From: a virus
Strand: one strand, 5' to 3'
Virus record (IMG/VR): IMGVR_UViG_3300025284_000002
Span: 1-43,380 of that record
DNA length: 43,380 bases
The first letter of the stretch is position 1. Each line of letters begins with the position of its first letter. Made by a program: the position numbers and the translations under genes. Of this stretch, positions 1-29,596 are shown piece after piece. The notes beneath the pieces are model-generated. The model did not search any database, had not been told where the DNA came from, and saw only the letters and a program-made list of their open reading frames with translations.

Positions 1-127
1 AAGGCGGGCTTCCAGCAGGTCAAGGATTCCGCCAAGGACATGGCGCAATCCGTTGCTCAGTCCGGCCAAGCGGCCTCAAAGGGCATCGACGGAATTGGTG
101 ACGGCGCGAGCGCTGCCGGCGCGAAGG
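1..127. repeat. Terminal overlap identical to 43254-43380 (circular contig closure)
   Basis: Read directly: aaggcgggcttccagcaggtcaagg...gccggcgcgaagg occurs at both window ends. It lies in phase inside the tape-measure ORF. Confidence 0.95.
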
Positions 128-3120
128 TTGATCGGGCAACCTCGAACCTGATCAGCTCCATCCAGCGCGCGACGGCGGCGGCTGAGGCCGGCAAGAAGTC
201 TGGCTCTGCGTTCTACGAATCCCTGGCCAACCAGCGCGGCGTGAACGTTGACGTGCTGCGCCCGTACCTCAATCAACTGGATGCCGTTACCGCCAAGACC
301 AAGGCGGCGACGGCGGCGGCTGTAGATTGGTCCAAGGTCACGACTTCGCTTGGCGCGAGCAACACGCTGGCCGGCGCGACTACTTCGCTCGGGGCTACCG
401 CCTTCACGAAGCCGGCGGCACTGCCTGCTGTGGTGCCTCAGATTGCGTCCGAGTCGCAGAAGGCCGCCGTTGTCGCTGCGCAGTCGCTGGACAAGATTGG
501 CATGTCGGCTAAGCAAACCGCTGCGGCTCTGCGCCAAGTGCCGGCGCAGTTCACCGACATCGTCACCAGCCTTCAAGCGGGCCAGTCGCCGCTGACGGTG
601 CTGCTGCAGCAAGGCGGTCAGTTGAAAGACGTCTTCGGTGGCGTCGGCCCTGCCGCCCGCGCACTCGGCAACTACATCTCTAGCCTGATCACGCCGCTGA
701 CGCTCGCCGCGGCCGGCGTTGGCGCGCTTGCTGTCGCCATGTACCAGGGCAGCAAGGAGTCGGAGGCGTATGCCAAAGCCCTGATCCTGACCGGTAACAG
801 CATCGGCAAGACGACCGACCAGCTGCAGGGCATGGCGGCGAACATCGCGAAGATCACCGGCACGCAAGGCGAGGCGGCCGAGGCCCTGGCCGCCATGGCG
901 CAGAGCGGGAAGATCGCAAGCTCGTCCTTCACGGAGGTCGGGGCGGCGGTCGTTTCAATGAACCGGGTGCTTGGCACGTCGATTGACGACGCTGTCGGGC
1001 AGTTCGTGAAATTGGCGGATGCTCCGGCCAAGGCGTCGGCCGACCTGAACGAGAAACTGCATTACCTCAACCTGACGACCTACGAGCGCATCCGTGCGCT
1101 GGAGGAGCAGGGCGACAAGGAGGGAGCAGCCGCGCTGGCTCAAAAGAGCCTGGCCGAGGCGACCACCGCGCGCATGGCTGCGGTCGAGAAGCAGGCCGGC
1201 GTTCTGGCCCGCGCGTGGCAGGCGCTTACGCACGACGCCAAGGAAGCTTGGGACATCATGTCCGGGCTGGGGCGCCCGCAGACCACGGGCGATAGGATCG
1301 CGGACCTTCAGAAGCAGTTGGCCGATCGCCAGGCCCGCGGTGCCACCAACAGCCTGACGACCGGAGCATTCGAGAAGGGCAATTCGCGCCTGCAGGCGGA
1401 GATCGCTACGCTGTCGCGTCAATCGTTGCGCGAGCAGGAATACGCGTATGCGCAAGGCGAGAAAGCGCGGTCGGACGCCGCCAAGATCGCGGCCTCGGAC
1501 CGCCTGAACACCCTGACGAAGGAAGTCCAGACCAACGCGGACAAGCGCAAAAAGGCGATCGCCGAGCTGAACAAGGACTTTCAGACCCTGGGCAAGGCGA
1601 CCAGCGGCGCCGAATACGACAAGCTCGTCGCCAACATCAACGAGAAGTTCAAGGATCCGAAGGCGGCCGCCGGTAAGGCCTTCCAGGACGACGCGGCGAC
1701 GAAGATGCTCGCCGGTCTCCGCCAGCAAGAGGCGGCGCTCAAGGAGCAGCTTGCAACCGACGAAAAGCTCACCGCCTCCGAGAAGGAACGCGCCAAGTTC
1801 GTCCAGCTGGTCGCCGACCTCAAGACCAAAGGCACTCTCACCGCCGAACAGAAGAGCCTCTTGGCCAACCAGGGCGCGATCAAAGCCCAGCTCGACCAGA
1901 ACGTCGCCATCGAGAAGCAGGTCGAGCTCAAGAAGGAGGCGGCCAAGCTCGACGAGCAGCGCCGCAAGGACGCGGAGGAGTTCGCGCGCCAGATCGAGGG
2001 CATCAACATCTCGATCGAGTCCTCGAATCGGAGCCGACAGGACCAGCAGGACCGCACACTTGAAGCCTTCGGGCTGGGCTCGCGTGCCCGCAGTGAGGTG
2101 GAGGCGCAGCGCTCGATCCGTCGCGAGTTCGAGGGCTACCAGCGGCAGCTGACGAAGAACGCCGCCGAGAAGAACCAACTCGGCTCGGATGCCTACAAAG
2201 AAGAGACCGCCCGCATCAAGTCGGCGCTCGACGACGCGCTGGCGGCGCAGCAGGCCTACTTCGACGCTCTGAAGGAAAAGCAGGAAGACTGGCGCAACGG
2301 CGCGACGACCGCGCTGGCCGACTACATCGACTACGTCGAGGACGCCGCCGGCCGGGCCCGCGCGCTGATGTCGAACATCCTCGGCGGCCTGAATGAGTCG
2401 ATCACTGACGCGTTGTGGACGGGAAATCTCGACTCATTCAAGAAGTTCGGCGACGCGATCGGCAAGCAGATCATCTCCGGCATTGTCGAGCAGCAACTGA
2501 CCAAGCCGCTCGCCCAGTGGATGCAAGGCGCCGTCAGCGACAAGGACTCGATCTTCTCGAAGATCTTCGGCGGCCTGACCAGCAACAAGGAAAGCGGCGA
2601 GAACTGGCTCGGTGCGCTCGGCCTGGGCGGCGGCAAGTCGGCCGCGAACGACGCCCTGGCGCGAGGCTCCACGATCGCGAACCCGCTCTATGTGAAGTCG
2701 GTTGACTTCGAAGGCGTTGGATCGGTCTTCGGCTCCGCCGCCAACGACAGCGGCGGGGGATTCGCCGGAGTTCTGGGAGGGCTTTTTGGCGGCATGTCGA
2801 ATGGCGCAGCGACGACCGTCGCGAACGCGCTCCCCGGCGATTCACTGGACAACCTTATCAAGCTGGCGGGCGCCTGGGGCGGCGCGTTCGCTGACGGGGG
2901 AAGCCCGCCGCTTGGCAAGGTATCGCTGGTTGGGGAGCGAGGGCCCGAGTTGTTCATCCCAAATCAGCCGGGGACCATCGTCCCGAACGGCGCGATCGGC
3001 GGCAGGAGCACTGTCGTGCACATCAACCAGACCTTCGCCGAAGGCACCTCCAGAAAGACTGCCGACCAGGCGGCTCTTTCGGCGAGTAGGGCGCTTCAGC
3101 GTGCGCAGAGGATCGCATGA
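1..3120 (+). CDS. Tail tape measure protein, main part (ORF continues from 43197 across the circular junction; about 1058 aa in total)
   Basis: Track ORF 40..3120 is open back to base 1 in the same frame. Long Ala/Gln/Lys-rich coiled-coil protein with a C-terminal [10 protein letters not shown] motif typical of lambda-family tape measures. It sits between the G/GT chaperones and the distal tail genes. Confidence 0.9.
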
Positions 3121-4894: not shown

Positions 4895-5322
4895 CGGGCG
4901 CGGACATCGTGACCGAGGCCCGCACCTGGCTCGGCGTCCGCTGGAAGCACCAGGGGCGCGACCGCGGCGGCATCGACTGCGCCGGCCTGGTCATCAAGGT
5001 GGGGCAGGCGTTCGACGTGCTTGCCTTCGACACGCGCGACTACGGCCCTCAGGCGTCCGACGAAAGCATGCTGCGCTTGTGCCGCGAGCACCTGCAAGAG
5101 GTCGGCCGCGGCGAGATGGCGCCGGGCGACGTGATCGTGATGCGCTTCGGCGCGAATCGGCACCTCGGCATTGCCGGCGACTACCTGCACGGCGGCTTGA
5201 GCGTGATCCACGCCTTCACGCAGATGCGGCGCGTGACCGAAAGCCGCTTCGATGAAACCTGGCTTCGCCAGATGGGCGGCTCCTTCATGGCCTGCTTTCG
5301 CTTCCCGGGGGTGACGCCATGA
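4891..5322 (+). CDS. NlpC/P60 family cell-wall peptidase (GTA gp14-like)
   Basis: ATGA-coupled start. Contains GIDCAGLV (catalytic Cys) and PGDVIVM...HLGI (His) motifs. Confidence 0.8.
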   Translation: MTGADIVTEARTWLGVRWKHQGRDRGGIDCAGLVIKVGQAFDVLAFDTRDYGPQASDESMLRLCREHLQEVGRGEMAPGDVIVMRFGANRHLGIAGDYLHGGLSVIHAFTQMRRVTESRFDETWLRQMGGSFMACFRFPGVTP

Positions 5323-8300
5323 CGATGCAAACCACGCTCGGGGTCATCGGCGGCGTCGTCGGCGCCTTCTTCGGCTATCCGCAGCTCGGCTTCCTTGTCG
5401 GCTCGCTGATCGGTGCCGCCCTCACGCCCGGCACCAAGACCGAGGGGCCGAAACTCGATGACCTCAAGGTCACGGTCAGCACCTACGGGGTCGGCATCGC
5501 CATCCTGTACGGCACCATGCGGATGGGCGGCAACGTCATCTTCTCGACCGACAAGATCGACGTGGCGACGACCGAGTCGCAGGGCAAGGGCGGCGGCAAC
5601 GAGACCACGACGCACAGCTACTTCGTCCACATGGCGACGGCGCTCTGCGAGGGCCCGATCACGGCGGTGCGCAAGCGCTGGTTCGACGGCGCCCTGAAGT
5701 ACGACCAGTCGAGCGGCATCCCGATTGCCTCGGCCCTGGCCAGCGCAAGCAGCCCCTACGCGACGGCGACGGTCTACCTCGGCACGGACAGCCAGTTGCC
5801 CGACCCGACGATGGAGTCGATCAAGGGCGTGGGGCACGTCCCGGCGTACCTGAACACGGCCTATGTCATGGACACCTGGCTGGAGACGCCGGGCGGCCGC
5901 ATCCCGCAAGGGACGTTCGAGGTCACGACCGATTCCAACGCCGCACCGGAAGTGTCGCAGCTGGTGACGGTGCCGGTCGTCACCAACGACCTGTATGCGG
6001 GTGTGTGCCAGCCCAACGGCGTATGGCACAGCTACTGGCAGAGTTCGGGCTTCGGCTTCCCGACCAGCTTCACCGTCTACTACGGCGAGACCAGCGGACA
6101 GGTGCAGGCGGTTCGCAACTTCCAGTTGCCGGAGTCCAACGCCTACCAGCCCTACCCGGTCTTCTGCGCGACCGAGGCGCTGTGGCTATGGCCGAACGGC
6201 GGTGCGCCGGGTCTCACCGCACGGCTCGATGTCATCGACGCCAACTCGGGCGTGCGCAACACGGTCTATCAGGGCGACGCCGGCTCCTGCCCTGGCTACT
6301 ACGTCGGGCGCGCGGCTTACGACCCGGTCGAGAAGCTATTCATCGTCCTGAGTCTGGGCGACCCCGACTTCCCGCAGCCGCTGATCTTCAATCGATTCAA
6401 CGGCGTGCCAATCTCCGTCGCGCCCGTTTCCGGCATTCCGTTCCAGGTTGGCATCGGTGGCGGTGTGGCGTACGTGCTGACGGACGACGGCGGTGTTCTG
6501 AAGTTGGCGCGCCGCTTCACCAATGGCACGATCGACGCCTCGATGCCGGACACCATTGGTCCGACATTCGGCATGAACAGCCTAGCGCTGCAGTTCTCGT
6601 GCCTGTGTGTCAACGAGTTCGGCATCTTCGCGCTGATTCTTTCAGGCAGCCCCAACATCACGGCACGTTCGATCTACAAGATCAACCCGGCCACGGCGAC
6701 TGATCCTGGCTCCTGGGCACTGCTCTACACCGGCAGCGCGCTGGCGATCGAGAACATCTTCTCCGGCCCGGCGTCGCGCACCTTCTATTGCTCCAACGAG
6801 ATGGCGGTTGTCGGCCCGGTCCCAGCGTCCGACGACTACAAGGCCATCCGCTTCGCTGCCCTCAACGTCTCTCCCTATCCAGTGGCGGACATCCTGGCCG
6901 ACCAGTGCCGCCGGGCGGGAGTCGACCTGGATCACGTCGACGTGAGCGGCATCGACGACGAGGTCATTGGCTACGTCATCAAGAACCCGGGCAGCGCGCG
7001 GGCCAACATCGACCCGCTGCTGATGGCCTACGGGATCGACGTACGCGAGCAGGACGGGAAGATCCAGTTCATCAAGCGCGCCGACCAGGTGTCGGTAGCG
7101 ACGATCCCCTACGTCGACCTGGCCAGCCACGACGCCAGCGAGGAGCCCGGCGACCCGATGCCGCTCACGCACCAGCAAGAGGTCGAGTGCCCGAAGACGG
7201 TGTCGGTGTCGTTCCTGAACTACCTGGACGACTACCAGACGGCGACGGAGAGCTACACCGGGCAGGTAACGACCTCGGAGAAGGTCACGACCATTGAACT
7301 GCCGCTGGCGTTGACGCCGGACGAAGGCGCGACGATCGCCTTCCGGCTCTGGTGCGACGCCTGGAACGCCCGCAACGCGCGCAGCCTGAAGCTGCAGCGC
7401 AAGTACCTGGCGCTCTCTCCGGGTGACGTGGCGACGGTGGAGTACCCCGAAGGCAGCCTCAGCGACTGGCGCCTGACCAAGATCACCGACACGGGCTCGC
7501 TGCTGGAGTGCGAGGCGGTTCCGGCGGATTCGGCCCTGTACTCGCAGACTGCGGTCGGCGCCACCAGCTACAGCGGCGGCCAGGAAGTCCCGGCGCAGCC
7601 ATCGAACACGCGCCTGACCCTGGCCGATGCCCCGATCTTCCGGGACGAGGACAGCAACGGCGGCATCTATGCCTGCATGGAGGGCTTTGGCCCCGGATGG
7701 AACGGCGCCACGCTTTGGGTCGGGGAGGACGACACCAGCCTCCAGGACCGCGGCACTGTCAGCAATGTGTGCGCGACTGGCTTCGCCGAGGATGCGCTCG
7801 GCACCTGGTCGCCTCGAATGATCGACGGCGCGAACAGCGTGATCGTCACCATGGGCGACGACGTGCTGGCCAGCATCACGAACGACCAACTCATGACCAC
7901 GCGCGCCAACCTGGCGCTGCTTGGCACGAATGGCCGCTGGGAGGCGATCCAGTTCCAGCGCGCGGACGACCTTGGCAGCGGTCGCTATCGCCTCTACGGA
8001 CTGCTTCGTGGCCTGTTCGGCACCGAGCGCAACCGCGGCACTCACGCGATTGGCGACACGTTCCTTCTGCTGGCTGGTGTCAGCGGCATTCTGCGCCCGA
8101 GCATGGGAGCCAGCGAGATCGGACAGAACAAGTCCTACCGCGCAGTGTCGCTGGGCCGGGACATGAACGCGACGGCGTCCGTCGTCTATGCCAACACGGC
8201 CGAGGGCCTGCGCCCCTACGCACCGTGGGACGCGCGCAAGTCCAAGGCGGCGAGCAACGACCAGGCCATCACCTGGGAGCGGCGCACGCGCTTCGCCAGC

Positions 8301-8540
8301 AATGCGCTGCGCGGGATCGTGCCACTGGGCGAGACGACGGAGGCGTACCGCATCCGGCTCTACACGTCGAGCGCGTTCACCACGGTGGCGACCACCAAGA
8401 CCAGCACCTCGCGCACCGCGACCTTCACCAGCGCCGAGCAGACGGCCGCCGGCCTCACGCCGGGCGGGACGCTCTGGGTCGGCATCTCCCAAGTGTCCGA
8501 CACCTACGGCGCCGGCTCCGAGCTGCAAGCGACGCTCTAA
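5319..8540 (+). CDS. Host specificity / central tail fibre protein (GTA gp15-like, 1073 aa)
   Basis: ATGA-coupled. Gly-rich hydrophobic N-terminus followed by GPKLDDLKVTVSTYGVGIAILYGTMRMGGNVIFS, characteristic of this family. Size and position fit. Confidence 0.8.
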   Translation: MTMQTTLGVIGGVVGAFFGYPQLGFLVGSLIGAALTPGTKTEGPKLDDLKVTVSTYGVGIAILYGTMRMGGNVIFSTDKIDVATTESQGKGGGNETTTHSYFVHMATALCEGPITAVRKRWFDGALKYDQSSGIPIASALASASSPYATATVYLGTDSQLPDPTMESIKGVGHVPAYLNTAYVMDTWLETPGGRIPQGTFEVTTDSNAAPEVSQLVTVPVVTNDLYAGVCQPNGVWHSYWQSSGFGFPTSFTVYYGETSGQVQAVRNFQLPESNAYQPYPVFCATEALWLWPNGGAPGLTARLDVIDANSGVRNTVYQGDAGSCPGYYVGRAAYDPVEKLFIVLSLGDPDFPQPLIFNRFNGVPISVAPVSGIPFQVGIGGGVAYVLTDDGGVLKLARRFTNGTIDASMPDTIGPTFGMNSLALQFSCLCVNEFGIFALILSGSPNITARSIYKINPATATDPGSWALLYTGSALAIENIFSGPASRTFYCSNEMAVVGPVPASDDYKAIRFAALNVSPYPVADILADQCRRAGVDLDHVDVSGIDDEVIGYVIKNPGSARANIDPLLMAYGIDVREQDGKIQFIKRADQVSVATIPYVDLASHDASEEPGDPMPLTHQQEVECPKTVSVSFLNYLDDYQTATESYTGQVTTSEKVTTIELPLALTPDEGATIAFRLWCDAWNARNARSLKLQRKYLALSPGDVATVEYPEGSLSDWRLTKITDTGSLLECEAVPADSALYSQTAVGATSYSGGQEVPAQPSNTRLTLADAPIFRDEDSNGGIYACMEGFGPGWNGATLWVGEDDTSLQDRGTVSNVCATGFAEDALGTWSPRMIDGANSVIVTMGDDVLASITNDQLMTTRANLALLGTNGRWEAIQFQRADDLGSGRYRLYGLLRGLFGTERNRGTHAIGDTFLLLAGVSGILRPSMGASEIGQNKSYRAVSLGRDMNATASVVYANTAEGLRPYAPWDARKSKAASNDQAITWERRTRFASNALRGIVPLGETTEAYRIRLYTSSAFTTVATTKTSTSRTATFTSAEQTAAGLTPGGTLWVGISQVSDTYGAGSELQATL

Positions 8541-8549
8541 GGAAAACGA

Positions 8550-9446
8550 ATGGCAAACAGTACTTCTCCCGTCCCACAGGTAGCCGAGGGCACCGGCGCG
8601 GTCGCCAAGATCAACCAGATCAACGACGCGAACTCGCAAGGGTTGATCGGCGGCCGCGATGCCAGCACCACGTCGCTGCTCACCTGGGGCACGCTGGGCG
8701 GCCGCATCGCAGGCATTAACGTCGCCAATGGTACGGTGACGCTGACGGCCAGCGCGACGAACTATGTCGTGATGAAGAAGTCGGACGGCGTCGTCAGCGT
8801 GGCGACCACGACGACCAACTGGGACGACTCGGCGAACTACTGGCGCCTGTACTCGGTGGTTGTCGGCACCACGGCGCCGACGAGCTACAACGACGAGCGC
8901 ACCAGCGAGCGCGGGATCTTCGGCGTCGGCGCGGTGCCGGTCGCCGGCTTCACGAATCCGATGACGACCGCCGGGGACATGATCGGCGCGACCACGTCGG
9001 GCGTCGCCATCCGTATCCCCAAAGGCACGGCCTACCAGGGCCTGCGCATGAACAGCGGCGCTACGGCGCAAGAGTGGGCGACGGTCACAACCTGCATCCC
9101 GATTGCCTGCGGCGACGAAACGACCGCGATTGGCACCGGCACGGCAAAGGTGACTTTCCGCATGCCGTTCGCCATGAAAGTGACGGCGGTTCGCGCCTCC
9201 CTCACGACCGCTCAGGCGAGCGGCTCGATCTTCACGGTCGACATCAACGAGGGCGGCACGACGATCCTGTCCACGAAGCTGACCATCGACAACACCGAAA
9301 AGACCAGCGTGACGGCAGCGACGCCGCCGGTCATCGGCGACGCCGACCTGGCCGACGATGCAGAAATCACCATCGACGTTGACCAAGTCGGCAGTGGCTC
9401 GGCCGCCGGCCTCAAGGTCTACCTCATCGGGTACGTCGCGCAATGA
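8550..9446 (+). CDS. Distal tail / putative receptor-binding protein (unknown family)
   Basis: 298-aa ORF directly after the host-specificity gene and ATGA-coupled to the next gene. Thr/Gly/Ala-rich, beta-type composition. Confidence 0.6.
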   Translation: MANSTSPVPQVAEGTGAVAKINQINDANSQGLIGGRDASTTSLLTWGTLGGRIAGINVANGTVTLTASATNYVVMKKSDGVVSVATTTTNWDDSANYWRLYSVVVGTTAPTSYNDERTSERGIFGVGAVPVAGFTNPMTTAGDMIGATTSGVAIRIPKGTAYQGLRMNSGATAQEWATVTTCIPIACGDETTAIGTGTAKVTFRMPFAMKVTAVRASLTTAQASGSIFTVDINEGGTTILSTKLTIDNTEKTSVTAATPPVIGDADLADDAEITIDVDQVGSGSAAGLKVYLIGYVAQ

Positions 9447-10270
9447 GCCGCCTGATCCGCCTGGACACCGACATCGATAGCGCCTTCGTGGCGCGCGCTC
9501 GGCAACGGGCGTTGATCGAGGGGCGCGGCCCGCGCGTGTCGGAGTTCTTCCTCAACCCGTACCGATTCGGCGGCGCTGGCAGCACGGACCCGCTCTATGC
9601 CCAAGTCGCGCTGCTGCTGCACATGGACGGGTCGAACGGCGGTACGACGTTCACCGACAACAGCCCGACGCCGAAGACGGTCACGCCGACAATCGTCACG
9701 ACCAGCACGGTGCAGGCCAAGTTCGGCATCTCGTCGGCGCTCTATCCGGGGGCCAGCGCGACGCAGAAGCTGACCATTCCGCACTCGGCAGACCTGGCCC
9801 CGACCGGCGACTTCTGCGTCGAAATGTGGGTGCGGCTCGGGGCGGCGGCATCGCAGCGGTGCCTTATCTGGAAGTCGGTTTCGACGGGTCACACGACCTA
9901 TGCCATGCGCCTGACGACGACGAACACGGTGCAGTGCTTTGCGTCGAACGCGGCCGGGTCGGCGTTCCAGATCAACATGACAGGCACGACGGCCGTCAAC
10001 ACGTCCGGCACCTGGCAGCACATCGCGTTCGACCGCAACGGCAGCACCTATCGTCTATTCATTCACGGGACGCTCGACACGAGCGCATCTGCCGCCGGTG
10101 CAGGCTATGTCAATGCGGCGCACAGCGTCACGATCGGCAACGTCACCGACAACACCTTGCCCATCGGCACGGGCGGGAATGACTCCTACATCGACGACGT
10201 GCGGATCACGACGGCCTCGCGCTACACGGCGAACTTCACGCCGCCTTCTTCGCCTTTCCCGAACTCCTGA
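9443..10270 (+). CDS. LamG/concanavalin-A-like lectin domain tail protein
   Basis: Motifs LTIPHSADLAPTGDFCVEMWVRL, GTWQHIAFDRNGSTYRLFIHG and YIDDVRIT are typical of Laminin_G_3 jelly-rolls. It is the last gene of the tail module. Confidence 0.7.
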   Translation: MSRLIRLDTDIDSAFVARARQRALIEGRGPRVSEFFLNPYRFGGAGSTDPLYAQVALLLHMDGSNGGTTFTDNSPTPKTVTPTIVTTSTVQAKFGISSALYPGASATQKLTIPHSADLAPTGDFCVEMWVRLGAAASQRCLIWKSVSTGHTTYAMRLTTTNTVQCFASNAAGSAFQINMTGTTAVNTSGTWQHIAFDRNGSTYRLFIHGTLDTSASAAGAGYVNAAHSVTIGNVTDNTLPIGTGGNDSYIDDVRITTASRYTANFTPPSSPFPNS

Positions 10271-10276
10271 CCCCCG

Positions 10277-10300
10277 GCCCGCTTCGGCGGGTTTTCTTTT
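10277..10300 (+). terminator. Intrinsic terminator after the tail module
   Basis: The sequence gcccgc-ttcg-gcgggt forms the stem and is followed by ttttcttttt. Confidence 0.7.
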
Positions 10301-10320
10301 TGCCCTCACGAAAGCTCCAC

Positions 10321-10554
10321 ATGAAGCGCTATCTCTGGAACGCCTTGGTCGCGTTCGACCAGTTCATCAACGCGCTCACGGGTGGCGACCCCGACATGAC
10401 GCTCTCCGGCCGCATGGGCAAGGCGGTCGCAGAGGGGCGGTGCAAGGCATGCCGCGGCATCTGCTGGGTGCTCGACAGGTTCGACCCGGGCCACTGCGCC
10501 CGCGTGAGCCAGGCCGAGTCCGACGAGGGCGCTGATGAGGTGGCAAAGCTGTGA
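10321..10554 (+). CDS. Small Cys-containing protein upstream of the lysis genes (function unknown)
   Basis: ATG at 10321 (MKRYLWNALVAFDQFINALTGGDPD...). Its stop overlaps the GTG start of the next gene. No clear Shine-Dalgarno sequence. Confidence 0.55.
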   Translation: MKRYLWNALVAFDQFINALTGGDPDMTLSGRMGKAVAEGRCKACRGICWVLDRFDPGHCARVSQAESDEGADEVAKL

Positions 10555-10772
10555 GCGAGATCGATCCCCAGGACTTCGGCCGCCTGACAGCCAAGGTCGA
10601 GATGCTGGAGGAGCAGGTCGCTGAGATGCGCGCCGACCTCCGAGCAGTGCGCGACATGCTCAACGAGGCGAAAGGCGGCTGGAAGTTGATGCTGGCCGTC
10701 GCCGGTTTCGCTGGCACTGCCGGCGCGCTGCTGTCCAAGTTCCTCGTGTTCTTCCAATCCACTCCGAAGTGA
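10551..10772 (+). CDS. Coiled-coil protein with a C-terminal transmembrane helix (lysis accessory?)
   Basis: GTGA overlap with the upstream gene. N-terminal heptad-like EMLEEQVAEMRADLRAV, C-terminal WKLMLAVAGFAGTAGALLSKFLVFF. Confidence 0.6.
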   Translation: MSEIDPQDFGRLTAKVEMLEEQVAEMRADLRAVRDMLNEAKGGWKLMLAVAGFAGTAGALLSKFLVFFQSTPK

Positions 10773-10779
10773 GGCGCGC

Positions 10780-11265
10780 ATGACCTTCGACGAAGCATTC
10801 GACCGGCTCATCGGGCACGAGGGCGGCTACGCGAACAGCCCCTCCGATCCGGGCGGCGAGACCATGTGGGGCGTCACCGCCAAGGTCGCCTATGCGAACG
10901 GCTACACCGGACGCATGCGGGATCTGCCTCGCGACACCGCGAAGGCGATCTACCGCAAGCAGTACTGGGACTCCGTCAAGGCCGAGCAGCTGCCGCTGGG
11001 TCTGCGCTTCGACGTGTTCGACGCCGCGGTGAACTCCGGCGTCTCGCAGTCGGTCAAGTGGCTCCAGCGTGTTGTCGGCGTCGTCGACGACGGCGTGATC
11101 GGCCCCATGACCATCAGCGCCGCCAACAAGCTGGACGGCAAGGCCGCCGCAGCCGCATTCAACGGCGTCCGACTCGACTTCATGACGAGCCTGCCGACCT
11201 GGGGCATGTTCGGCAAGGGCTGGGCCCGCCGCATCGCATCCAACCTCCAAGCACTGAAGGGCTGA
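10780..11265 (+). CDS. Endolysin, glycoside hydrolase family 108 with a PG_binding_3 domain
   Basis: GHEGGYANSPSDPGGETMWGVT motif plus VDDGVIGPMTISAA peptidoglycan-binding motif. Confidence 0.9.
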   Translation: MTFDEAFDRLIGHEGGYANSPSDPGGETMWGVTAKVAYANGYTGRMRDLPRDTAKAIYRKQYWDSVKAEQLPLGLRFDVFDAAVNSGVSQSVKWLQRVVGVVDDGVIGPMTISAANKLDGKAAAAAFNGVRLDFMTSLPTWGMFGKGWARRIASNLQALKG

Positions 11266-11267
11266 CC

Positions 11268-11654
11268 ATGGCACTCGAACCCGTCACCGCCGGCCTGGAA
11301 CTGGCGAACACCGTCGTCAAGACCATCTGGCCCGACAAGTCCGAGCAGGAGCGCGCGCAACTCGCCGCGGCCGTGCAGCTCGTGCAGGGGCAGATGGAGA
11401 TCAACAAGGCCGAGGCAACGAACCCGAGCATCTTCGTCAGCGGGTGGCGGCCCTTCGTGGGCTGGGTCTGCGGCGGCGCCTGCGCGTGGAACTGGATTGG
11501 CCTGCCGATCATGAAGCTCGCCCTGGCCGTGATGGACCGCCAAGTCAATCTCGCGCCGGCCGATCTGTCCGAGATGCTTCCGTTGCTGCTGGGCCTGCTC
11601 GGCCTCGGCGGCCTGCGCACCTTCGAGCGAGTCAAGGGCGTGGCGCGGAAGTAG
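11268..11654 (+). CDS. Holin, 3-TM GTA-type
   Basis: IWPDKSEQERAQL...NKAEATNPSIFVSGWRPFVGWVCGG matches the recalled GTA_holin_3TM pattern. Starts 2 nt after the endolysin stop. Confidence 0.8.
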   Translation: MALEPVTAGLELANTVVKTIWPDKSEQERAQLAAAVQLVQGQMEINKAEATNPSIFVSGWRPFVGWVCGGACAWNWIGLPIMKLALAVMDRQVNLAPADLSEMLPLLLGLLGLGGLRTFERVKGVARK

Positions 11655-11656: not shown

Positions 11657-12082
11657 ATGATCGAGGTCCGCCAAGTCAACGCCCAAGACCCCAAGGTCGA
11701 GGCACTGCTGAAGTTCCTGCAGCTGTCCACTCTGGGCGGCGACGAGCCCTACGACGTGTCCGAGGGGCACTGGTGGATCGCCTACGACGGCCAACTGCCG
11801 GTCGCCTTTGCCGGCGTCGTCCGCTCCTTCCAGTGGTCCGACACCGGCTACATGTGCCGAAGCGGCGTGTTGCGATCGCACCGCGGCAAGGGCCTGCAGA
11901 AGCGCCTGATCCGCGTCCGGGAAGCCAAGGCGCGCCGTCTGGGCTGGAATTGGCTCATCTCTGACACCTACAAGAACCCGCCCAGCGCGAACAGTCTGAT
12001 CGCCTGCGGGTATCGCACTTTCACCCCGTCTCGGCCCTGGGGCTTCGATGGGGCCATCTATTGGCGAAAGAAGATCCGATGA
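11657..12082 (+). CDS. GNAT family N-acetyltransferase
   Basis: 141 aa. The RSHRGKGLQKRLI segment is an acetyl-CoA-binding (R/Q-x-x-G-x-G/A) motif. Starts 2 nt after the holin stop. Confidence 0.75.
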   Translation: MIEVRQVNAQDPKVEALLKFLQLSTLGGDEPYDVSEGHWWIAYDGQLPVAFAGVVRSFQWSDTGYMCRSGVLRSHRGKGLQKRLIRVREAKARRLGWNWLISDTYKNPPSANSLIACGYRTFTPSRPWGFDGAIYWRKKIR

Positions 12083-13233
12083 AGGTTGACCCCAAGCTCT
12101 ACGAGTTCTGCACCGTCCGCCAGTTGGAGGTGCTGGAGGCCTTGGACACGCACGGCAGCGAGAAGAAGGCCGCCAAGGCGCTCGGATGCGCTTCCAGCCT
12201 GATCGGCAGCACCCTCAAGGCCGTGAAGAAGAAGGCGGCGCTGGCCGGTCACGCTCCGGGCCATTTCGAGAGCGGGGTGGCGCCCGGCTATGCCATGGGC
12301 AAGGTCACGGTCCAGCGCAACGCGAGCGGCGAGGTCGAACGCACCTGGGAGCGCCAGTCGCCGGAATCGCAGGCGCAACTTGAGGTGCTGCGCGCCGCGG
12401 CTGAGGCCATGTCCGAAGGGGTCAAGGGATTGGCGCCGCTGACGCCGCCGCCGGAGTTCACGCGCGACGACCTACTGTGCGTGTACCCGATGGGCGACCC
12501 GCACTTCGGCGCCATGGCCTGGTGGCAGGAGGTCGGGGAAAGCTTCGACCTTGAGATCGCGGAGAAGCTGACCTGCGGCGCGATCGACCGACTGGTCGCC
12601 AGTGCGCCGGCCTCGCATACGTCGCTACTTCTCAATTTGGGCGACATGTTCCACGCCGACAACCAGCGGAACGTGACCCAGTCGGGCCATCAGCTGGACG
12701 TAGATGGTCGCTGGGCCAAGATCCAGCAGGTCGGCCTTCGCGCGATGCTCTATTGCATTCGCCGGCTGCTGGAAAAGCACCAGCGCGTTATCGTCCGGAT
12801 CAACCGCGGCAACCACGACGGCCACTCGGCCTATGCGCTGGCCCTCATGATCTCCTGCTACTTCCATGGCGAGCCGCGAGTCGAGGTCGACCTTTCGCCT
12901 TCCGTCGTCTGGTTTCACCAGTTCGGCAAGGTGCTGATCGGCTCCACGCACGGGGACACCATCAAGGGCCCCGACATGATGGGCGTGATGGCCGCCGACA
13001 AGCCGGAAGAGTGGGGCGCCACCAGCCATCGGTACTTTTACGTCGGCCACGTCCACCACCAGGACATCAAGGAGTACCGCGGCGGCGTCGTCGAGTACTT
13101 CCGCACGCTTGCGGCACGCGACGCCTGGCACCACGGGCAGGGCTACCGCGCCGGCCGCGACATGCGGCTGATCGTCCATCACCGCGAGCACGGCGAGATC
13201 GAGCGCCACCGGTGCGATGTCGGCATGCTCTGA
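12079..13233 (+). CDS. HTH domain fused to a calcineurin-like metallophosphoesterase
   Basis: ATGA overlap with the GNAT gene. N-terminal RQLEVLEAL..KAAKALGCASSLIGSTLKAV (LuxR/sigma-r4-like HTH). Full metallophosphoesterase motif set: GDPHFG, GDMFHAD, GNHDG, THGD, GHVHH. Confidence 0.75.
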   Translation: MKVDPKLYEFCTVRQLEVLEALDTHGSEKKAAKALGCASSLIGSTLKAVKKKAALAGHAPGHFESGVAPGYAMGKVTVQRNASGEVERTWERQSPESQAQLEVLRAAAEAMSEGVKGLAPLTPPPEFTRDDLLCVYPMGDPHFGAMAWWQEVGESFDLEIAEKLTCGAIDRLVASAPASHTSLLLNLGDMFHADNQRNVTQSGHQLDVDGRWAKIQQVGLRAMLYCIRRLLEKHQRVIVRINRGNHDGHSAYALALMISCYFHGEPRVEVDLSPSVVWFHQFGKVLIGSTHGDTIKGPDMMGVMAADKPEEWGATSHRYFYVGHVHHQDIKEYRGGVVEYFRTLAARDAWHHGQGYRAGRDMRLIVHHREHGEIERHRCDVGML

Positions 13234-13251
13234 TGGCCTGATAATCGACGG

Positions 13252-13539
13252 ATGGCCAAGCCCACCGACGAAGAGAAGCAGCTACTCGAAATGATGCAGA
13301 AGTCCAAGGCCGGCCCGGCTATGGACACCCTCGCCGACATCTACCAGGCGTGGATCAAGGCGGGCCGCCCCGGCGACATCGGGGCGTTCCAGCGCAACTA
13401 CAAGCCAGGGGCTGAGCCGCGTGAGGCGTGGTGGAGGGAGTTGCTTCGGAACCTCCCGATCGTGATAGGGACGGTGGCCGGCTGCCTAGCAGTCATGGTT
13501 CTGTTCTACCAGCTCATCCAGTACGTGGGCAAGCACTAG
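13252..13539 (+). CDS. Tail-anchored small membrane protein
   Basis: 95 aa with a single C-terminal hydrophobic helix, LPIVIGTVAGCLAVMVLFYQLI. It is the last plus-strand gene before attP. Confidence 0.6.
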   Translation: MAKPTDEEKQLLEMMQKSKAGPAMDTLADIYQAWIKAGRPGDIGAFQRNYKPGAEPREAWWRELLRNLPIVIGTVAGCLAVMVLFYQLIQYVGKH

Positions 13540-13605: not shown

Positions 13606-13633
13606 TGGCCTGCCCGGAGGGGATCGAACCGTC
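13606..13633 (-). other. tRNA 3'-end-like segment, candidate attP core
   Basis: The minus strand reads GACGG-TTCGATC-CCCTC-CGGGCAG-G-CCA. That is a T-loop, a T-stem with 4 of 5 pairs, a 7-nt acceptor strand, a discriminator and CCA. No D arm or anticodon arm precedes it. It lies 54 bp from the int stop. Confidence 0.4.
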
Positions 13634-13657
13634 TTGCCAGCGCAACCCAGACGAGCG

Positions 13658-13689
13658 TAGCGCAATTCTTCCAATGAAGGATTGCGCTA
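13658..13689 (-). terminator. Strong hairpin overlapping the int stop codon
   Basis: The arms tagcgcaattcttc and gaaggattgcgcta around a caat loop give a 14-bp stem with one G-U pair. No clear U-run follows, so function as a terminator or processing site is inferred. Confidence 0.45.
13663..13672 (+). repeat. 10-bp direct repeat caattcttcc (copy 2)
   Basis: Identical to 13554-13563. It lies inside the hairpin. Confidence 0.4.
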
Positions 13690-14856
13690 GGACGTGCTCC
13701 GTTGCGCCTTTTCTTCCCTGGATTCTTCCCCGATCAGGTTCTCCAGCTTGCCCATCTCGACCGCGTTCTGGCCGCCGTCGATCCACTTGGCGTAGGTCCG
13801 CAGGAACATGTCGACCGAGTGCCCCATCTGCTTCGCCGCGTAGGCCGGGGTGACGCCGGCCATCAGCATCATCGTCGCGTAGGTGTGGCGCGTCTGGTAG
13901 GGGCTGCGGTAGCGGATGCCCAGGCGCTTAAGGGTGGGGCGCCAGTACATCTCCCGCGGCGTCCAGTCGTCCACCCAGCGCTCGCGCGTCTTGGGGTCAG
14001 GGAAAACCCAGCCGTCCCGCATCAGGAAGCTGTGCGCCTTCTGGGCCTTGAGGTACTCCAGCGCCCGCGAGTTGATCTGCACCAGGCGCGCGACGTTGGT
14101 CTTGGTGTTGTCCTTGTGCTCGCCCAGGACGATGGCGTCGGACACCATCATGTGCCCGAGCCGCCAGTCGATGGACTCCCACTTGAGGGCGAGGCTTTCC
14201 GATGTGCGCAGGCCAGTGAAGAACTTGACGCCGAAGTAGTTGGCGATCTCCGGGCCGTACTTCTCCAGCAGGCCGGCCAGGATGGCTTCGGCCTCCTCCA
14301 TGCTGAACGGGTCGGGGATCTTGCGCTGGTGCGGCGCGGACTCCAGGCCGTCGAGCGGGTTGATGGTGATGATGCGGTCCTTGATGGCCAACGTCAGCGC
14401 CAGGCGCAGGACGCTGGTCTTGTTGTTGATGGTCTTGCCGCTCCATGTCGGCTCCTTCGCCAGCGCGGCGAGGATGTCGCTGTGCAGCAGCGCCTTCAGC
14501 TGCTTGTGGCCGATGCGCTTCTTCCACCAGTCCTTCGCGATCCGGTAGCCCTTCAGGGTGCTGGACTCCTTGGTCTGCAGGCTGTACCAGAGGTCTAGGT
14601 GCTCGCCGACCGTCGTCCCGACGCCGGTGGTGGCGTGCGGGCTGGCCGGGAAGTAGTCGGCGTAGATGAAGGTGCCGTGCCGGATCTTGTCCTTGATCTC
14701 GGCCGCCAGCTTGTGGGCGTAGACGAGGTTCTTCGGGGTGGGCGGCATGGGCTTGCCGTCCGTCTTGATCGTCTCCTTCCGGACTTCACCCTCGAAGGTG
14801 AATGAGAGGCGGATGGACTTGTCGCGCGCCTCTACCCCGCTTCCTGCTCGGCCCAT
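13687..14856 (-). CDS. int: Tyrosine integrase
   Basis: Starts at MGRAGSGVEARDKSIRLSF (arm-binding N-terminus). Catalytic signature ...GLRTSE..., TRHTYATMMLMAG and GHSVDMFLRTYAKW. Confidence 0.9.
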   Translation of the reverse strand: MGRAGSGVEARDKSIRLSFTFEGEVRKETIKTDGKPMPPTPKNLVYAHKLAAEIKDKIRHGTFIYADYFPASPHATTGVGTTVGEHLDLWYSLQTKESSTLKGYRIAKDWWKKRIGHKQLKALLHSDILAALAKEPTWSGKTINNKTSVLRLALTLAIKDRIITINPLDGLESAPHQRKIPDPFSMEEAEAILAGLLEKYGPEIANYFGVKFFTGLRTSESLALKWESIDWRLGHMMVSDAIVLGEHKDNTKTNVARLVQINSRALEYLKAQKAHSFLMRDGWVFPDPKTRERWVDDWTPREMYWRPTLKRLGIRYRSPYQTRHTYATMMLMAGVTPAYAAKQMGHSVDMFLRTYAKWIDGGQNAVEMGKLENLIGEESREEKAQRSTS

Positions 14857-15056
14857 TGTTCGTACCCCTTCATGTCGATCAGGACGCGACCGTCGCGCTT
14901 GACCCATTGCCGGCCTTCCAGCCAGACGCTTTTCGCGATCTTCGTGCGAATCGCCCCGGGCGTAAAGCCGGTCATCATGGCCGCCAGTTCGATCGTAACG
15001 TAGCGCGCACTAACAACCTGCACGGTTGGCGCTGCCGGTTCGAGGATGGCGCTCAT
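14832..15056 (-). CDS. xis: Excisionase-like DNA-binding protein
   Basis: 74 aa, overlaps the int start by 25 nt. YVTIELAAMMTGFTPGAIRTKI...WVKRDGRVLIDMKGYEQW resembles Xis/AlpA-type winged helices. Confidence 0.7.
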   Translation of the reverse strand: MSAILEPAAPTVQVVSARYVTIELAAMMTGFTPGAIRTKIAKSVWLEGRQWVKRDGRVLIDMKGYEQWAEQEAG

Positions 15057-25643: not shown

Positions 25644-25981
25644 TCCAGTCGAACATCGACTTCACCTCTGCGCGCGCAGCTGGCGCCGCGGCCGGTGAGC
25701 TGGCGCTCGAGCGCGCCGAGAGGACCGACCCCGAGTTCCGGGCCCGCGCGCTGCGGTTCATCGTCGCGTTCATCCGTCGCCATGGCGAGGCCACGGGAGA
25801 AAGTGCAACAGATGCGGCGATTAAGGCCGGCATCACGGCGCCTGATGCGCGCGCTTTCGGCCCGGTGTACGCAGACGCTCTCAAGCGAGGACTCATCCGT
25901 GTTGTTGCATACGTGCCTCGTTCGAAGGGGCACGGGTCCATGGGCGGAAAGCGCTACGCGCCGGGGGTGCGATGGAAGTGA
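25640..25981 (+). CDS. Hypothetical early protein (113 aa)
   Basis: ATG at 25640 with a GGAGGG Shine-Dalgarno sequence. Overlaps the methyltransferase start by 10 nt. Confidence 0.65.
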   Translation: MIQSNIDFTSARAAGAAAGELALERAERTDPEFRARALRFIVAFIRRHGEATGESATDAAIKAGITAPDARAFGPVYADALKRGLIRVVAYVPRSKGHGSMGGKRYAPGVRWK

Positions 25982-26706
25982 AGACCATCGGCGACGCAAC
26001 GCTCTACAACGCGGACTGCATGGAAGTGCTGCGCTCGCTGCCTGACAGGGCCTTCGACCTGGCCATCACGGACCCGCCGTACTTCGACGGCCCGAACCGC
26101 TCTGGCTACTACGGCAAAGGCTACTCGAGCCTGGGCGTGCAGCGCGCCAAACACTACGACCAGATAGATGAATGGTCAGTGCCCGACACGGAGTACTTCA
26201 CCGAGCTGCGGCGGGTGTCGCGCCACCAGATCATCTGGGGTGCCAATCACTTCGCCGACCGGTTCGCTTCGGCCTCGCCGTCGTGGATCGTGTGGGACAA
26301 GCAGAACGGTGCTAGCACGTTTGCCGATGCCGAGCTTGCCTACTGCTCCATGGACTGCGCCGTGCGCGTCTTCCGCTACGTGTGGAATGGCATGCACCAG
26401 GGGCAGTACGGCGGCAACAAGTCGCTCAACGAGCCCCGCATCCATCCGACCCAGAAGCCCGTAGCACTCTACGAGTGGCTGCTGGACAACTACGCAAGAG
26501 CTGGACAGACGATTCTGGACACGCACCTTGGCAGCGGCTCGAGCGCAATCGCGGCCAAGAACCGGGGGTTCGCCTTCACCGGGATCGAGCTCAACGAAGG
26601 CCACTTCGCGCAGGCCTGCGCTCGTATCGAGAAGGCCGGCCGTCAGCTGCCGATCTTCGCCCCCGTGGCGGTACCGCCCGAGCAGCTTGGACTGGAGGCG
26701 CTGTGA
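25972..26706 (+). CDS. Orphan DNA methyltransferase (N6-adenine/N4-cytosine, beta class)
   Basis: AITDPPYFDG (motif IV) precedes ILDTHLGSGSSAIAA (motif I). No adjacent restriction endonuclease. Confidence 0.9.
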   Translation: MEVKTIGDATLYNADCMEVLRSLPDRAFDLAITDPPYFDGPNRSGYYGKGYSSLGVQRAKHYDQIDEWSVPDTEYFTELRRVSRHQIIWGANHFADRFASASPSWIVWDKQNGASTFADAELAYCSMDCAVRVFRYVWNGMHQGQYGGNKSLNEPRIHPTQKPVALYEWLLDNYARAGQTILDTHLGSGSSAIAAKNRGFAFTGIELNEGHFAQACARIEKAGRQLPIFAPVAVPPEQLGLEAL

Positions 26707-29435: not shown

Positions 29436-29596
29436 AGCCGTACATGCGCCGTCACCCCCGCTTCCGCGACCTGTGGATGTGTGGCTTCCCGCCCTATGGC
29501 TGGTGCATCGGCTGGACACCCGAGCAGGCCTATCGCCTGTGGAAGTTCTCGCAGGAGCGCGCCAAGCGCTGGGTCGACGGGAGGTACGTGGGATGA
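29432..29596 (+). CDS. 54-aa Trp-rich small protein
   Basis: ATGA-coupled at both ends. Below the track size cutoff as an independent ORF. Confidence 0.45.
   Translation: MKPYMRRHPRFRDLWMCGFPPYGWCIGWTPEQAYRLWKFSQERAKRWVDGRYVG

What the first reader, a model, noticed from the sequence alone, without database searches (positions are those of the whole stretch)
11657..13539. GNAT acetyltransferase, HTH-metallophosphoesterase and tail-anchored membrane protein coupled to the holin next to attP
Three genes with no obvious role in lysis or morphogenesis follow the 3TM holin. A 141-aa GNAT starts 2 nt after the holin stop. It overlaps (ATGA) a 384-aa protein that joins a LuxR/sigma-r4-like HTH to a complete calcineurin-type phosphoesterase motif set (GDPHFG, GDMFHAD, GNHDG, THGD, GHVHH). 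A 95-aa protein with one C-terminal TM helix follows. The slot between the lysis cassette and attP is a classical moron and defence-cargo position in lambdoid prophages (for example lambda bor). I do not recognise an acetyltransferase translationally coupled to a DNA-binding phosphoesterase as any described phage system. The cassette could be an anti-defence pair, such as nucleotide-signal degradation plus acetylation. It could be a lysogen-protecting nuclease system, or a late-acting host or DNA modification module.
Basis: partly seen in the sequence, partly recalled or inferred. Interest (0 to 1): 0.72.

Follow-up and report, generated by a model that had tools for sequence, protein, structure and literature searches.

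The report
Phage acetyltransferase paired with a nuclease-like phosphoesterase
At the end of this phage's late genes, a small, very basic acetyltransferase is translationally coupled to a DNA-binding metallophosphoesterase; the phosphoesterase family is found in thousands of phages, and the acetyltransferase almost always sits just upstream of some nuclease-type gene, an association I found described nowhere and whose function is untested.

Summary
The three-gene "system" does not hold up.

- **The 384-aa protein** is a full-length member of phrog_704 (E 2e-100). It has an N-terminal HTH, a flexible linker and a complete metallophosphoesterase core. The best structural match is Mre11. The family occurs in 2066 sequenced phages, including strictly lytic T1-like, Dhillonvirus, Jersey-like and N4-like phages. 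None of 48 related loci carries the GNAT or p95.
- **The 95-aa protein** is a near-ORFan. It has 2–3 relatives among billions of proteins and is absent from every related locus.
- **The GNAT** gave the unexpected result. It belongs to a uniformly basic family (pI 9.7–11). In 43 of 45 informative lineages it lies directly upstream of a nuclease-type gene: phrog_704 (11 lineages), an unrelated HTH-metallophosphoesterase family, phrog_221 (12), or an HNH endonuclease (20). The surrounding genomic contexts differ. Close GNAT relatives (92% identical) carry different phosphoesterase partners.

The conserved unit is therefore a two-gene module of GNAT plus nuclease. The GNAT is the facultative partner. 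No defence family matched, and the function is unknown. My best guess is a late-expressed DNA-processing nuclease with an accessory acetyltransferase that acts in the same nucleic-acid-linked process.

The parts
10276..10293 (+). Terminator-like GC hairpin plus T-run, between the tail-fibre ORF and the lysis cassette. It marks a possible start of a separate late transcription unit that includes the genes below.
   Evidence: This is a consensus match only; 2.8 such sites are expected by chance in the scanned region.
10300..10772 (+). Two small lysis-cassette ORFs. p84 (10300-10554) matches phrog_3342. p73 (10551-10772) has a coiled coil plus a C-terminal TM helix.
   Evidence: Homologues lie upstream of the phosphoesterase gene in several relatives.
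10780..11265 (+). Endolysin (GH108 plus a PG_binding_3 domain).
   Evidence: PF05838, 1e-27; phrog_315.
11262..11654 (+). Three-TM holin of the GTA-holin type.
   Evidence: PF11351, 2e-20; phrog_3427.
11657..12082 (+). GNAT N-acetyltransferase, 141 aa, pI 10.0. It starts 2 nt after the holin stop, and its stop codon overlaps the next gene's start (ATGA).
   Evidence: The AlphaFold model has pLDDT 93.8 and a canonical GNAT fold. The SHRGKG CoA-pyrophosphate loop is conserved. The family is basic throughout.
12079..13233 (+). HTH-metallophosphoesterase, 384 aa, a member of phrog_704.
   Evidence: E 1.9e-100, full length.
12091..12243 (+). N-terminal helical HTH-like domain of the phosphoesterase (residues 5-55), followed by a low-confidence linker (residues 60-75).
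   Evidence: helices 5-10, 13-25, 28-35 and 39-55; pLDDT 78-90. One search gives HTH_1 at E 0.038, below threshold. One search lists PF00126/PF18024 hits in homologues.
12463..13215 (+). Metallophosphoesterase catalytic core (residues 129-379) with all five motifs.
   Evidence: Foldseek finds Mre11 first (4tug, E 3e-6), then PolD DP1, Rv0805 and GpdQ.
13252..13539 (+). p95, a lineage-specific small protein with one C-terminal TM helix (residues 68-86, nt 13453-13509). It is not part of the conserved module.
   Evidence: Only 2 relatives are found among 5.8e9 proteins and 2 hits among 1.84e9 representatives. It is absent from all related loci.
13606..13638 (-). tRNA 3'-end-like string (GGTTCGATCC...GGGCAGGCCA). 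It is a plausible attP core.
   Evidence: Read directly from the sequence. ARAGORN and Rfam did not call it, so the assignment is an inference.
13687..14907 (-). Tyrosine integrase.
   Evidence: Arm-DNA-bind_2, 1e-18; Phage_integrase, 2e-15.

Best explanation
The conserved unit is a two-gene, late-transcribed module. It has an AcCoA-type, strongly basic GNAT translationally coupled to a nuclease-type gene. Here that gene is an HTH-tethered, Mre11-like metallophosphoesterase of phage family phrog_704. p95 is an unrelated lineage-specific ORFan.

**Shown:**
- The genes are real and tightly coupled behind the holin.
- The phosphoesterase has an intact di-metal site and an N-terminal HTH.
- The phosphoesterase is a widespread gene of lytic and temperate phages and does not need the GNAT.
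- The GNAT family is almost always found directly 5' of a nuclease-type gene, drawn from three families (phrog_704, phrog_221, HNH).
- The phosphoesterase partner has been swapped repeatedly.

**Inferred:**
- The phosphoesterase is a Mn/Mg-dependent DNA nuclease or phosphodiesterase. Its HTH brings it to DNA late in infection. The substrate could be the host chromosome, DNA ends or replication and packaging intermediates.
- The basic GNAT acetylates a nucleic-acid-associated target in the same process. Candidates are the nuclease itself, a host DNA-end or defence protein, or a nucleic acid.
- The GNAT is an optional accessory. It is not half of an obligate two-component system.
For: **Gene reality and coupling.**

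**The phosphoesterase.**
- It matches phrog_704 over its full length (E 1.9e-100).
- tblastn finds it in 2066 phage records.
- All metal ligands are invariant.
- The AlphaFold model shows an HTH, a linker and the phosphoesterase core.
- The best PDB match is the Mre11-DNA complex (E 3e-6).
- Motif II, GDMFHAD, resembles the Mre11 GDLFH motif. This is read from the sequence and rests on my own knowledge of Mre11.
- Its contexts in isolates are beside lysis genes, terminase genes, Dam/helicase genes or nucleotide-metabolism genes.

**The GNAT.**
- It reaches the Pfam threshold and gives a confident GNAT fold.
- pI is 9.7-11.0 in all 32 family members tested.

**The association.**
- 97 GNAT loci collapse to 47 lineages at 90% identity.
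- The immediate 3' gene is HNH in 20 lineages, phrog_221 in 12, phrog_704 in 11, something else in 2 and truncated in 2.
- The contexts differ. Some pairs sit after the lysis genes at the end of the late operon. Some run GNAT-HNH-TerS-TerL. Some are an inverted GNAT-HNH island among capsid genes.
- Partner types are interleaved on the GNAT tree. The window's GNAT is 92% identical to that of L050/L067, yet those loci carry phrog_221 instead of phrog_704.
Against: - No experiment bears on any activity.
- The phosphoesterase occurs without the GNAT in 48 of 48 related loci and in essentially all cultured phages. Only 1 of 50,697 phage records has a GNAT homologue, and that one has no phosphoesterase beside it. 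Any functional link is therefore dispensable for the nuclease.
- Swapping of the partner exactly at the GNAT/phosphoesterase boundary (GNAT 84-92% identical, phosphoesterase 45% identical or non-homologous) argues against a specific protein-protein partnership.
- The HNH-partnered GNATs form one clade, so that association may reflect a single event.
- Structural similarity to Mre11 is only moderate (TM 0.37-0.45). Phosphodiesterases such as Rv0805 and GpdQ also match, so a non-DNA substrate is not excluded.
- Pfam Metallophos itself does not hit the protein.
Confidence: 0.45

Rival explanations
1. Positional coincidence. The GNAT is an independent moron that lands at module junctions such as the end of the lysis cassette or the start of the packaging operon. 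Nuclease genes already live at those junctions: phrog_704 and phrog_221 after the lysis genes, and HNH beside the terminase. The adjacency would then carry no functional meaning.
For: - The phosphoesterase gene lies directly after spanin, holin or endolysin genes, with no GNAT, in many relatives. L012 runs from holin straight to the phosphoesterase, and by inspection at least 20 of 48 loci are like this.
- The HNH directly upstream of TerS/TerL is the classical packaging-HNH position.
- The recombination breakpoint falls exactly between the GNAT and the phosphoesterase.
- Both partners occur alone.
Against: - In HNH-type loci the genes upstream of the GNAT are on the opposite strand and are not lysis genes. 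The constant neighbour is therefore the downstream nuclease, not a particular junction.
- The GNAT-HNH pair also occurs as an inverted two-gene island inside capsid gene clusters.
- 43 of 45 lineages is a very high fraction for a gene class that makes up a few percent of phage genes.
- Start-stop overlap or spacing of 23 nt or less is the rule.
Confidence: 0.3
2. Packaging-associated nuclease. The HTH-phosphoesterase would be a positional and functional analogue of the terminase-associated HNH endonuclease. It would help to cut or trim concatemeric DNA, with the GNAT as an accessory of the packaging step.
For: - In Dhillonvirus PC2 the order is lysis genes, phosphoesterase, a small ORF, TerS, TerL.
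- In loci L013, L014, L017, L019 and L021-L025 the gene lies just upstream of ORFs whose sizes fit terminase subunits. In L026 it lies between an ORF that looks like TerL (by its P-loop sequence) and a portal-sized ORF. None of these was checked by a family search.
- Within one GNAT family the partner alternates between a terminase-adjacent HNH and the phosphoesterases.
Against: - In the window the gene is about 20 kb from TerS (32867) and TerL (33190).
- In Drexlerviridae, Jersey-like and N4-like phages it sits beside Dam/helicase genes, tail genes or nucleotide-metabolism genes rather than the terminase.
- No evidence of any interaction with terminase exists.
Confidence: 0.1
3. Counter-defence pair. 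The phosphoesterase would destroy a host immune signal or host DNA. The GNAT would inactivate a host defence protein by acetylation, as the anti-CRISPR AcrVA5 does.
For: - A mycobacteriophage metallophosphoesterase (A10ZJ24 gp48) degrades host DNA and silences defence genes (PMC12287305).
- GNAT anti-CRISPRs exist (my own knowledge).
- The patchy distribution of the GNAT is typical of accessory anti-defence genes.
Against: - gp48 is an early gene. These genes sit behind the holin with no promoter-like site, which suggests late expression, too late for classical anti-defence.
- An HTH is not needed to hydrolyse cyclic nucleotides.
- No relation to gp48 was tested or shown here.
Confidence: 0.1
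4. Lysogen-protecting cargo. The genes would be expressed from the prophage and act as a defence or exclusion system next to attP.
For: They occupy the last positions before attP and the integrase. p95 is a membrane protein of the kind often found among exclusion morons.
Against: - None of the three proteins gives a PADLOC hit.
- The phosphoesterase family is mostly in obligately lytic phages.
- No promoter-like site is found. The genes are coupled to the holin, and expressing them from that operon in a lysogen would be lethal.
Confidence: 0.05

Closest known systems
PHROG family phrog_704 ('DNA repair exonuclease'; the uncharacterised HTH-metallophosphoesterase of T1-like, Dhillonvirus, Jersey-like, Vibrio, Campylobacter and N4-like phages)
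   Same: The window protein gives a full-length profile match (E 1.9e-100). It has the same length, the same HTH-plus-phosphoesterase architecture and intact motifs. It often sits beside lysis or terminase genes.
   Different: No experimental function for the family turned up in the literature I could search. The name is a prediction. In cultured phages the gene has no GNAT upstream.
Mre11/SbcD nucleases
   Same: Both have the metallophosphoesterase fold. The best PDB match is M. jannaschii Mre11 bound to DNA (E 3e-6). Motifs II and III are of the GDxFH and GNHD type.
   Different: - No Rad50/SbcC-like ATPase gene lies nearby.
- An N-terminal HTH takes the place of a C-terminal capping or Rad50-binding region.
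- TM-score is only 0.37-0.45.
- No sequence-level hit to any PDB chain was found.
Mycobacteriophage A10ZJ24 gp48 metallophosphoesterase (PMC12287305)
   Same: It is a phage-encoded metallophosphoesterase with five motifs and phosphodiesterase and DNA-damaging activity. This shows that phage enzymes of this superfamily can act on DNA.
   Different: That paper reports gp48 as an early counter-defence gene. Homology to the window protein was not tested here.
Terminase-associated HNH endonucleases (HK97 gp74 type; own knowledge)
   Same: In 20 lineages the GNAT's partner is an HNH of about 120 aa (phrog_3106/2255, E 1e-24). It is often immediately upstream of TerS/TerL.
   Different: The window has no such HNH after the GNAT. 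Its only HNH lies in the nin-like region (27897-28424).
Mu Mom (a GNAT-fold, tRNA-dependent DNA adenine modifier; PMC13219725)
   Same: Both are GNAT-fold enzymes encoded as the last late gene at a genome end. Mom acts on nucleic acid, and the window GNAT is strongly basic, which may point the same way.
   Different: - No detectable homology (hhalign probability 0.5%).
- The window GNAT is a minimal 141-aa domain without Mom's HTH-like insertion.
- It keeps the CoA-pyrophosphate loop.

Membership tests
Calcineurin-like metallophosphoesterase superfamily | Five metal-binding and catalytic motifs: DxH, GD, GNH[DE], H, GHxH | tested here: met
   GDPHFG, GDMFHAD, GNHDG, THGD and GHVHH are all present. 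D140, H142, D189, N245, H246, H291, H324 and H326 are invariant in 50 homologues.
Calcineurin-like metallophosphoesterase superfamily | Two-sheet beta-sandwich phosphoesterase fold | tested here: met
   The AlphaFold model has mean pLDDT 76, and the core is mostly above 80. Among the 50 PDB matches listed, those at E <= 0.001 are metallophosphoesterase-fold proteins: Mre11, PolD DP1, the Pol zeta B subunit, Rv0805, GpdQ and purple acid phosphatase.
Calcineurin-like metallophosphoesterase superfamily | Pfam PF00149 (Metallophos) at the gathering score | tested here: not met
   No Metallophos hit at E <= 0.1. The family is too divergent for that model. The GNAT-linked phrog_221 proteins do reach it.
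phrog_704 | Full-length profile match | tested here: met
   E 1.9e-100, with residues 14-383 matching profile positions 7-388 of 390.
Mre11/SbcD nuclease | Adjacent or co-encoded Rad50/SbcC ATPase partner | tested here: not met
   The neighbours are the holin, the GNAT, p95 and the integrase. None of the related loci examined showed an ATPase partner.
Mre11/SbcD nuclease | Close structural similarity, including the capping domain | tested here: inconclusive
   Mre11 is the best hit, but TM-score is 0.37-0.45 and rmsd about 6 A.
Mre11/SbcD nuclease | Mn2+-dependent exo- and endonuclease activity on DNA | not testable with these tools
   This needs a biochemical assay.
GNAT superfamily | Pfam Acetyltransf_1 at the gathering score, and the GNAT fold | tested here: met
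   31.3 bits against a cut-off of 20.7. The model has pLDDT 93.8 and gives 615 PDB matches at E <= 0.001, of which all 50 listed are GNAT-fold proteins.
GNAT superfamily | Conserved beta4-alpha3 pyrophosphate-binding loop (R/Q-x-x-G-x-G/A type) | tested here: met
   S74-H-R-G-K-G79 aligns with SHRGQG of the CoA-bound SACOL1063 structure. G77 and G79 are invariant and R76 is nearly invariant in the family.
Mom-type DNA-modifying GNAT | Homology to Mu Mom, including the HTH-like insertion | tested here: not met
   hhalign probability is 0.5%. The 141-aa protein has no insertion. The features of Mom are taken from PMC13219725.
GNAT toxin-antitoxin modules (TacT/AtaT type; own knowledge) | Cognate small RHH/DUF1778 antitoxin gene directly adjacent | tested here: not met
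   The upstream gene is the holin and the downstream gene is the phosphoesterase.
Known anti-phage defence systems (PADLOC-DB v2) | Any component profile match | tested here: not met
   No family at E <= 0.1 for any of the three proteins.

The most novel reading that the evidence does not exclude
The GNAT-nuclease pair is a phage-encoded licensing or self-protection module, analogous to modification-restriction. The basic GNAT would acylate a nucleic acid (phage DNA or a tRNA) or the nuclease itself. The downstream nuclease (phrog_704, phrog_221 or HNH) would then attack only host or competitor DNA, or become active only at the right moment. The interchangeability of three unrelated nucleases behind one GNAT would reflect this shared logic.
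Probability: 0.1. Interest if true: 0.85.

Novelty: new variant of a known kind. Interest (0 to 1): 0.45.

Why it matters
**The phosphoesterase.** phrog_704 is present in more than 2000 sequenced phages, including T1-like Klebsiella and E. coli phages and Jersey-like Salmonella phages. No function for it turned up in the literature I could search. Any handle on it would be useful.

**The GNAT pattern.** A strongly basic GNAT family sits directly upstream of a nuclease-type gene in 43 of 45 lineages. The nucleases come from three families and the genomic contexts differ. This is guilt-by-association evidence for a phage module that I found described nowhere, and simple genetics and biochemistry could test it.

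**The negative result.** The region is not a three-gene defence cassette, so it should not be prioritised as one.

Tried and rejected
- **Solved relatives by sequence.** No PDB relative was found for the phosphoesterase. The GNAT gave only generic hits; the best was a putative streptothricin acetyltransferase at 4e-5.
- **NCBIfam and PADLOC.** Nothing significant.
- **Rfam.** The whole window and the attP region gave no hit. The tRNA-like attP core rests on reading the sequence only. The ARAGORN tRNA-Met inside a tail gene is probably spurious.
- **Near-identical DNA in sequenced phages.** None.
- **A conserved small ORF downstream of the phosphoesterase.** The small ORFs coupled to this gene in other phages are unrelated to each other and to p95. 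Rejected.
- **Mom-like GNAT.** Rejected.
- **Profile comparison of phrog_704 with the phrog_221 partners.** Only the N-terminal HTH aligned, and weakly. I treat the two families as distinct within the superfamily.
- **Foldseek of the GNAT.** Only generic GNATs were returned, with no substrate clue.
- **Literature searches.** No functional study of this phosphoesterase family or of a GNAT-nuclease pair turned up.
- **Limits of the census.** The GNAT census used the best 80 of 388 IMG/VR matches plus 17 metagenome loci. It was dereplicated at 90% identity but not phylogenetically corrected. The metagenome-contig scan was not used.
Full report
**1.

The window looks like a nearly complete temperate siphovirus genome. 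A tape-measure-sized ORF (1026 aa) lies at 40-3120, and tail genes, including the tail-fibre ORF, run up to 10270. TerS and TerL lie at 32867-34878, and a nin-like region contains NinB, NinG/Rap, an HNH and a DNA methyltransferase. An identical copy of the 384-aa protein is on record on a 43,394-bp metagenomic contig.

The lysis cassette comes first:
- p84 (10300-10554)
- p73 (10551-10772)
- GH108 endolysin (10780-11265)
- 3TM GTA-type holin (11262-11654)

- The GNAT (11657-12082) starts 2 nt after the holin TAG.
- The 384-aa ORF (12079-13233) starts in an ATGA overlap with the GNAT stop.
- The 95-aa ORF runs 13252-13539.

All three ORFs have third-position GC of 0.85-0.88, like the capsid and terminase genes. 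The five phosphoesterase motifs are present, and their ligand residues are invariant in 50 homologues. An integrase (13687-14907, minus strand) and a tRNA-3'-end-like string (13606-13638, minus strand) make attP plausible. No RNA tool called the string.

**2. The 384-aa protein belongs to a very large, uncharacterised phage family.**

- It matches phrog_704 ("DNA repair exonuclease") over its full length (E 1.9e-100).
- It gives no Pfam Metallophos hit and no sequence hit to any solved structure.
- tblastn finds relatives in 2066 of 50,697 phage records. These include T1-like Drexlerviridae, Dhillonvirus, Jersey-like Salmonella phages, and Vibrio, Campylobacter, Flavobacterium and N4-like roseophages. 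The best match is Pseudanabaena phage Pan3 at 52% identity.
- The big protein database holds more than 3300 relatives.

An AlphaFold model (pLDDT 76) shows three parts:
- a four-helix N-terminal domain (residues 5-55);
- a low-confidence linker;
- a phosphoesterase core (residues 129-379).

Foldseek against the PDB puts M. jannaschii Mre11 bound to DNA first (E 3e-6, TM 0.37-0.45). PolD DP1, Pol zeta B subunits, Rv0805 and GpdQ follow. Against viral models it finds only uncharacterised phage proteins.

In isolates the gene sits in several contexts:
- between the lysis genes and TerS/TerL in Dhillonvirus PC2;
- between Dam/helicase genes and the holin in Drexlerviridae;
- in an inverted island among tail genes in a Jersey-like phage;
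- among nucleotide-metabolism genes in N4-like DSS3phi2.

A gene this common in obligately lytic phages is not lysogen defence cargo. PADLOC and NCBIfam gave nothing.

**3. The three-gene cassette is not conserved.**

I fetched 47 loci encoding relatives of the phosphoesterase, at 33-72% identity, and two loci from isolates. None contains a homologue of the GNAT or of p95.

The usual upstream neighbour in these loci is a spanin, holin or endolysin gene. In L012 the holin abuts the phosphoesterase directly. In other loci the gene lies just upstream of ORFs whose sizes fit terminase subunits.

p95 has 2 relatives among 5.8 billion proteins. A full HMMER scan of 1.84 billion representatives returned one of those again, plus one odd repeat-protein hit. 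The small ORFs that follow the phosphoesterase in other phages are unrelated to p95 and to each other. p95 is a lineage-specific tail-anchored ORFan.

**4. The GNAT gave the unexpected result.**

The GNAT family has 253 database hits, almost all from metagenomes. Only one cultured phage carries it, Limnohabitans phage YIMV22061. The family is a canonical minimal GNAT:
- It reaches the Pfam threshold.
- The model has pLDDT 93.8.
- The SHRGKG CoA-pyrophosphate loop is conserved.
- Fold matches are generic.
- It has no relation to Mu Mom.
- It is uniformly very basic, with pI 9.7-11.0 and net charge +7 to +17.

I examined the gene directly 3' of the GNAT in 97 loci. The loci collapse to 47 lineages at 90% GNAT identity:

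| Gene directly 3' of the GNAT | Lineages |
|---|---|
| HNH endonuclease of about 120 aa (phrog_3106/2255, E 1e-24) | 20 |
| phrog_221 metallophosphoesterase (PF00149 above threshold; most copies have their own N-terminal HTH) | 12 |
| phrog_704 (the window's family) | 11 |
| Something else | 2 |
| Truncated by a contig end | 2 |

The surrounding contexts differ:
- The phosphoesterase-type pairs follow endolysin, spanin or holin genes and end the late operon, as in the window.
- The HNH-type pairs have opposite-strand genes upstream. They either lead into TerS-TerL or sit as an inverted two-gene island among capsid genes.

On a GNAT tree the HNH-linked members form one clade. The phrog_704 and phrog_221 partners are interleaved. 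The window's GNAT is 92% identical to that of L050/L067, where the partner is a phrog_221 protein. It is 84% identical to that of L051, where the phrog_704 partner is only 45% identical to the window's.

**5. Interpretation.**

The conserved unit is GNAT plus a downstream nuclease-type gene. The GNAT is the dependent, facultative member, because all three nuclease families occur widely without it.

I commit, at moderate confidence, to the following model. The genes are transcribed late with the lysis genes. There is no promoter-like site, and a terminator-like hairpin precedes the cassette at 10276-10293. The HTH-tethered, Mre11-like phosphoesterase acts on DNA. The basic GNAT acetylates a nucleic-acid-associated target in the same process.

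The main rival is positional coincidence at module junctions. Three observations favour it:
- The phosphoesterase follows the lysis genes even without the GNAT.
- HNH genes normally sit by the terminase.
- The recombination breakpoint falls exactly between the two genes.

Three observations weigh against it:
- The downstream partner class stays constant while the upstream context changes.
- The pair also occurs as an inverted island.
- The frequency is 43 of 45.

The packaging-helper, counter-defence and lysogen-cargo readings are less likely, for the reasons given under each rival.

**6. Novelty and score.**

Each protein is a new member of a known superfamily or PHROG. My literature searches found no description of the GNAT-nuclease pairing. 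The closest functional precedents are conceptual rather than homologous:
- a mycobacteriophage phosphoesterase that degrades host DNA (PMC12287305);
- Mu Mom, a late, terminal GNAT-fold DNA modifier (PMC13219725).

I rate the finding as a new variant of a known kind with moderate interest (0.45). The defence-cassette idea falls. What remains is a testable association that had not been noticed, and a very widespread phage gene without a known function.

Noticed in passing
window 10276-10293 (+): A terminator-like GC hairpin with a T-run lies between the tail-fibre ORF (9443-10270) and the first lysis-cassette ORF (10300). The lysis genes, GNAT, phosphoesterase and p95 may form their own transcription unit, perhaps one that needs antitermination.
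   Followed up: no
window 7804-7889 (-): ARAGORN calls a tRNA-Met inside the 1073-aa tail ORF (5319-8540). The Rfam gathering scan of the window finds no tRNA. This is probably a false positive.
   Followed up: partly
window 13606-13638 (-): A tRNA 3'-end-like string (T-arm GGTTCGATCC, acceptor strand, CCA) lies 50 nt from the integrase gene. It is a plausible attP core that would point to the host's tRNA attB. No RNA tool called it.
   Followed up: partly
window 25972-30231 (+): A lambdoid nin-like block: DNA methyltransferase (25972-26706), HNH endonuclease (27897-28424), NinB/Orf (28911-29435) and NinG/Rap (29473-30231). The phage therefore carries other nucleases besides the phosphoesterase.
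   Followed up: partly
L050/L067 5423-6202 and L068: The closest GNAT relatives (79-92% identical) are followed by a 255-265-aa phrog_221 phosphoesterase that lacks the N-terminal HTH. Longer phrog_221 partners (about 320-331 aa) have one. The HTH is therefore not obligatory for the pairing.
   Followed up: partly
L151 (Salmonella phage ST521_2H4) 2941-4690: The phrog_704 gene and two small flanking ORFs form a plus-strand island inside minus-strand tail genes. The arrangement looks like an inserted cassette and resembles the inverted GNAT-HNH islands.
   Followed up: no
P0243 (2827-aa metagenomic protein): The only remote hit of p95 is a giant protein in which a stretch matching p95 residues 37-66 recurs eight times (E 1e-13). 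I have no explanation.
   Followed up: no
L060/L061, L073, L078, L086, L125 and others: GNAT-HNH occurs as a two-gene plus-strand island between minus-strand structural genes, with a capsid gene of about 300 aa immediately downstream. This suggests the pair moves as a cassette.
   Followed up: partly
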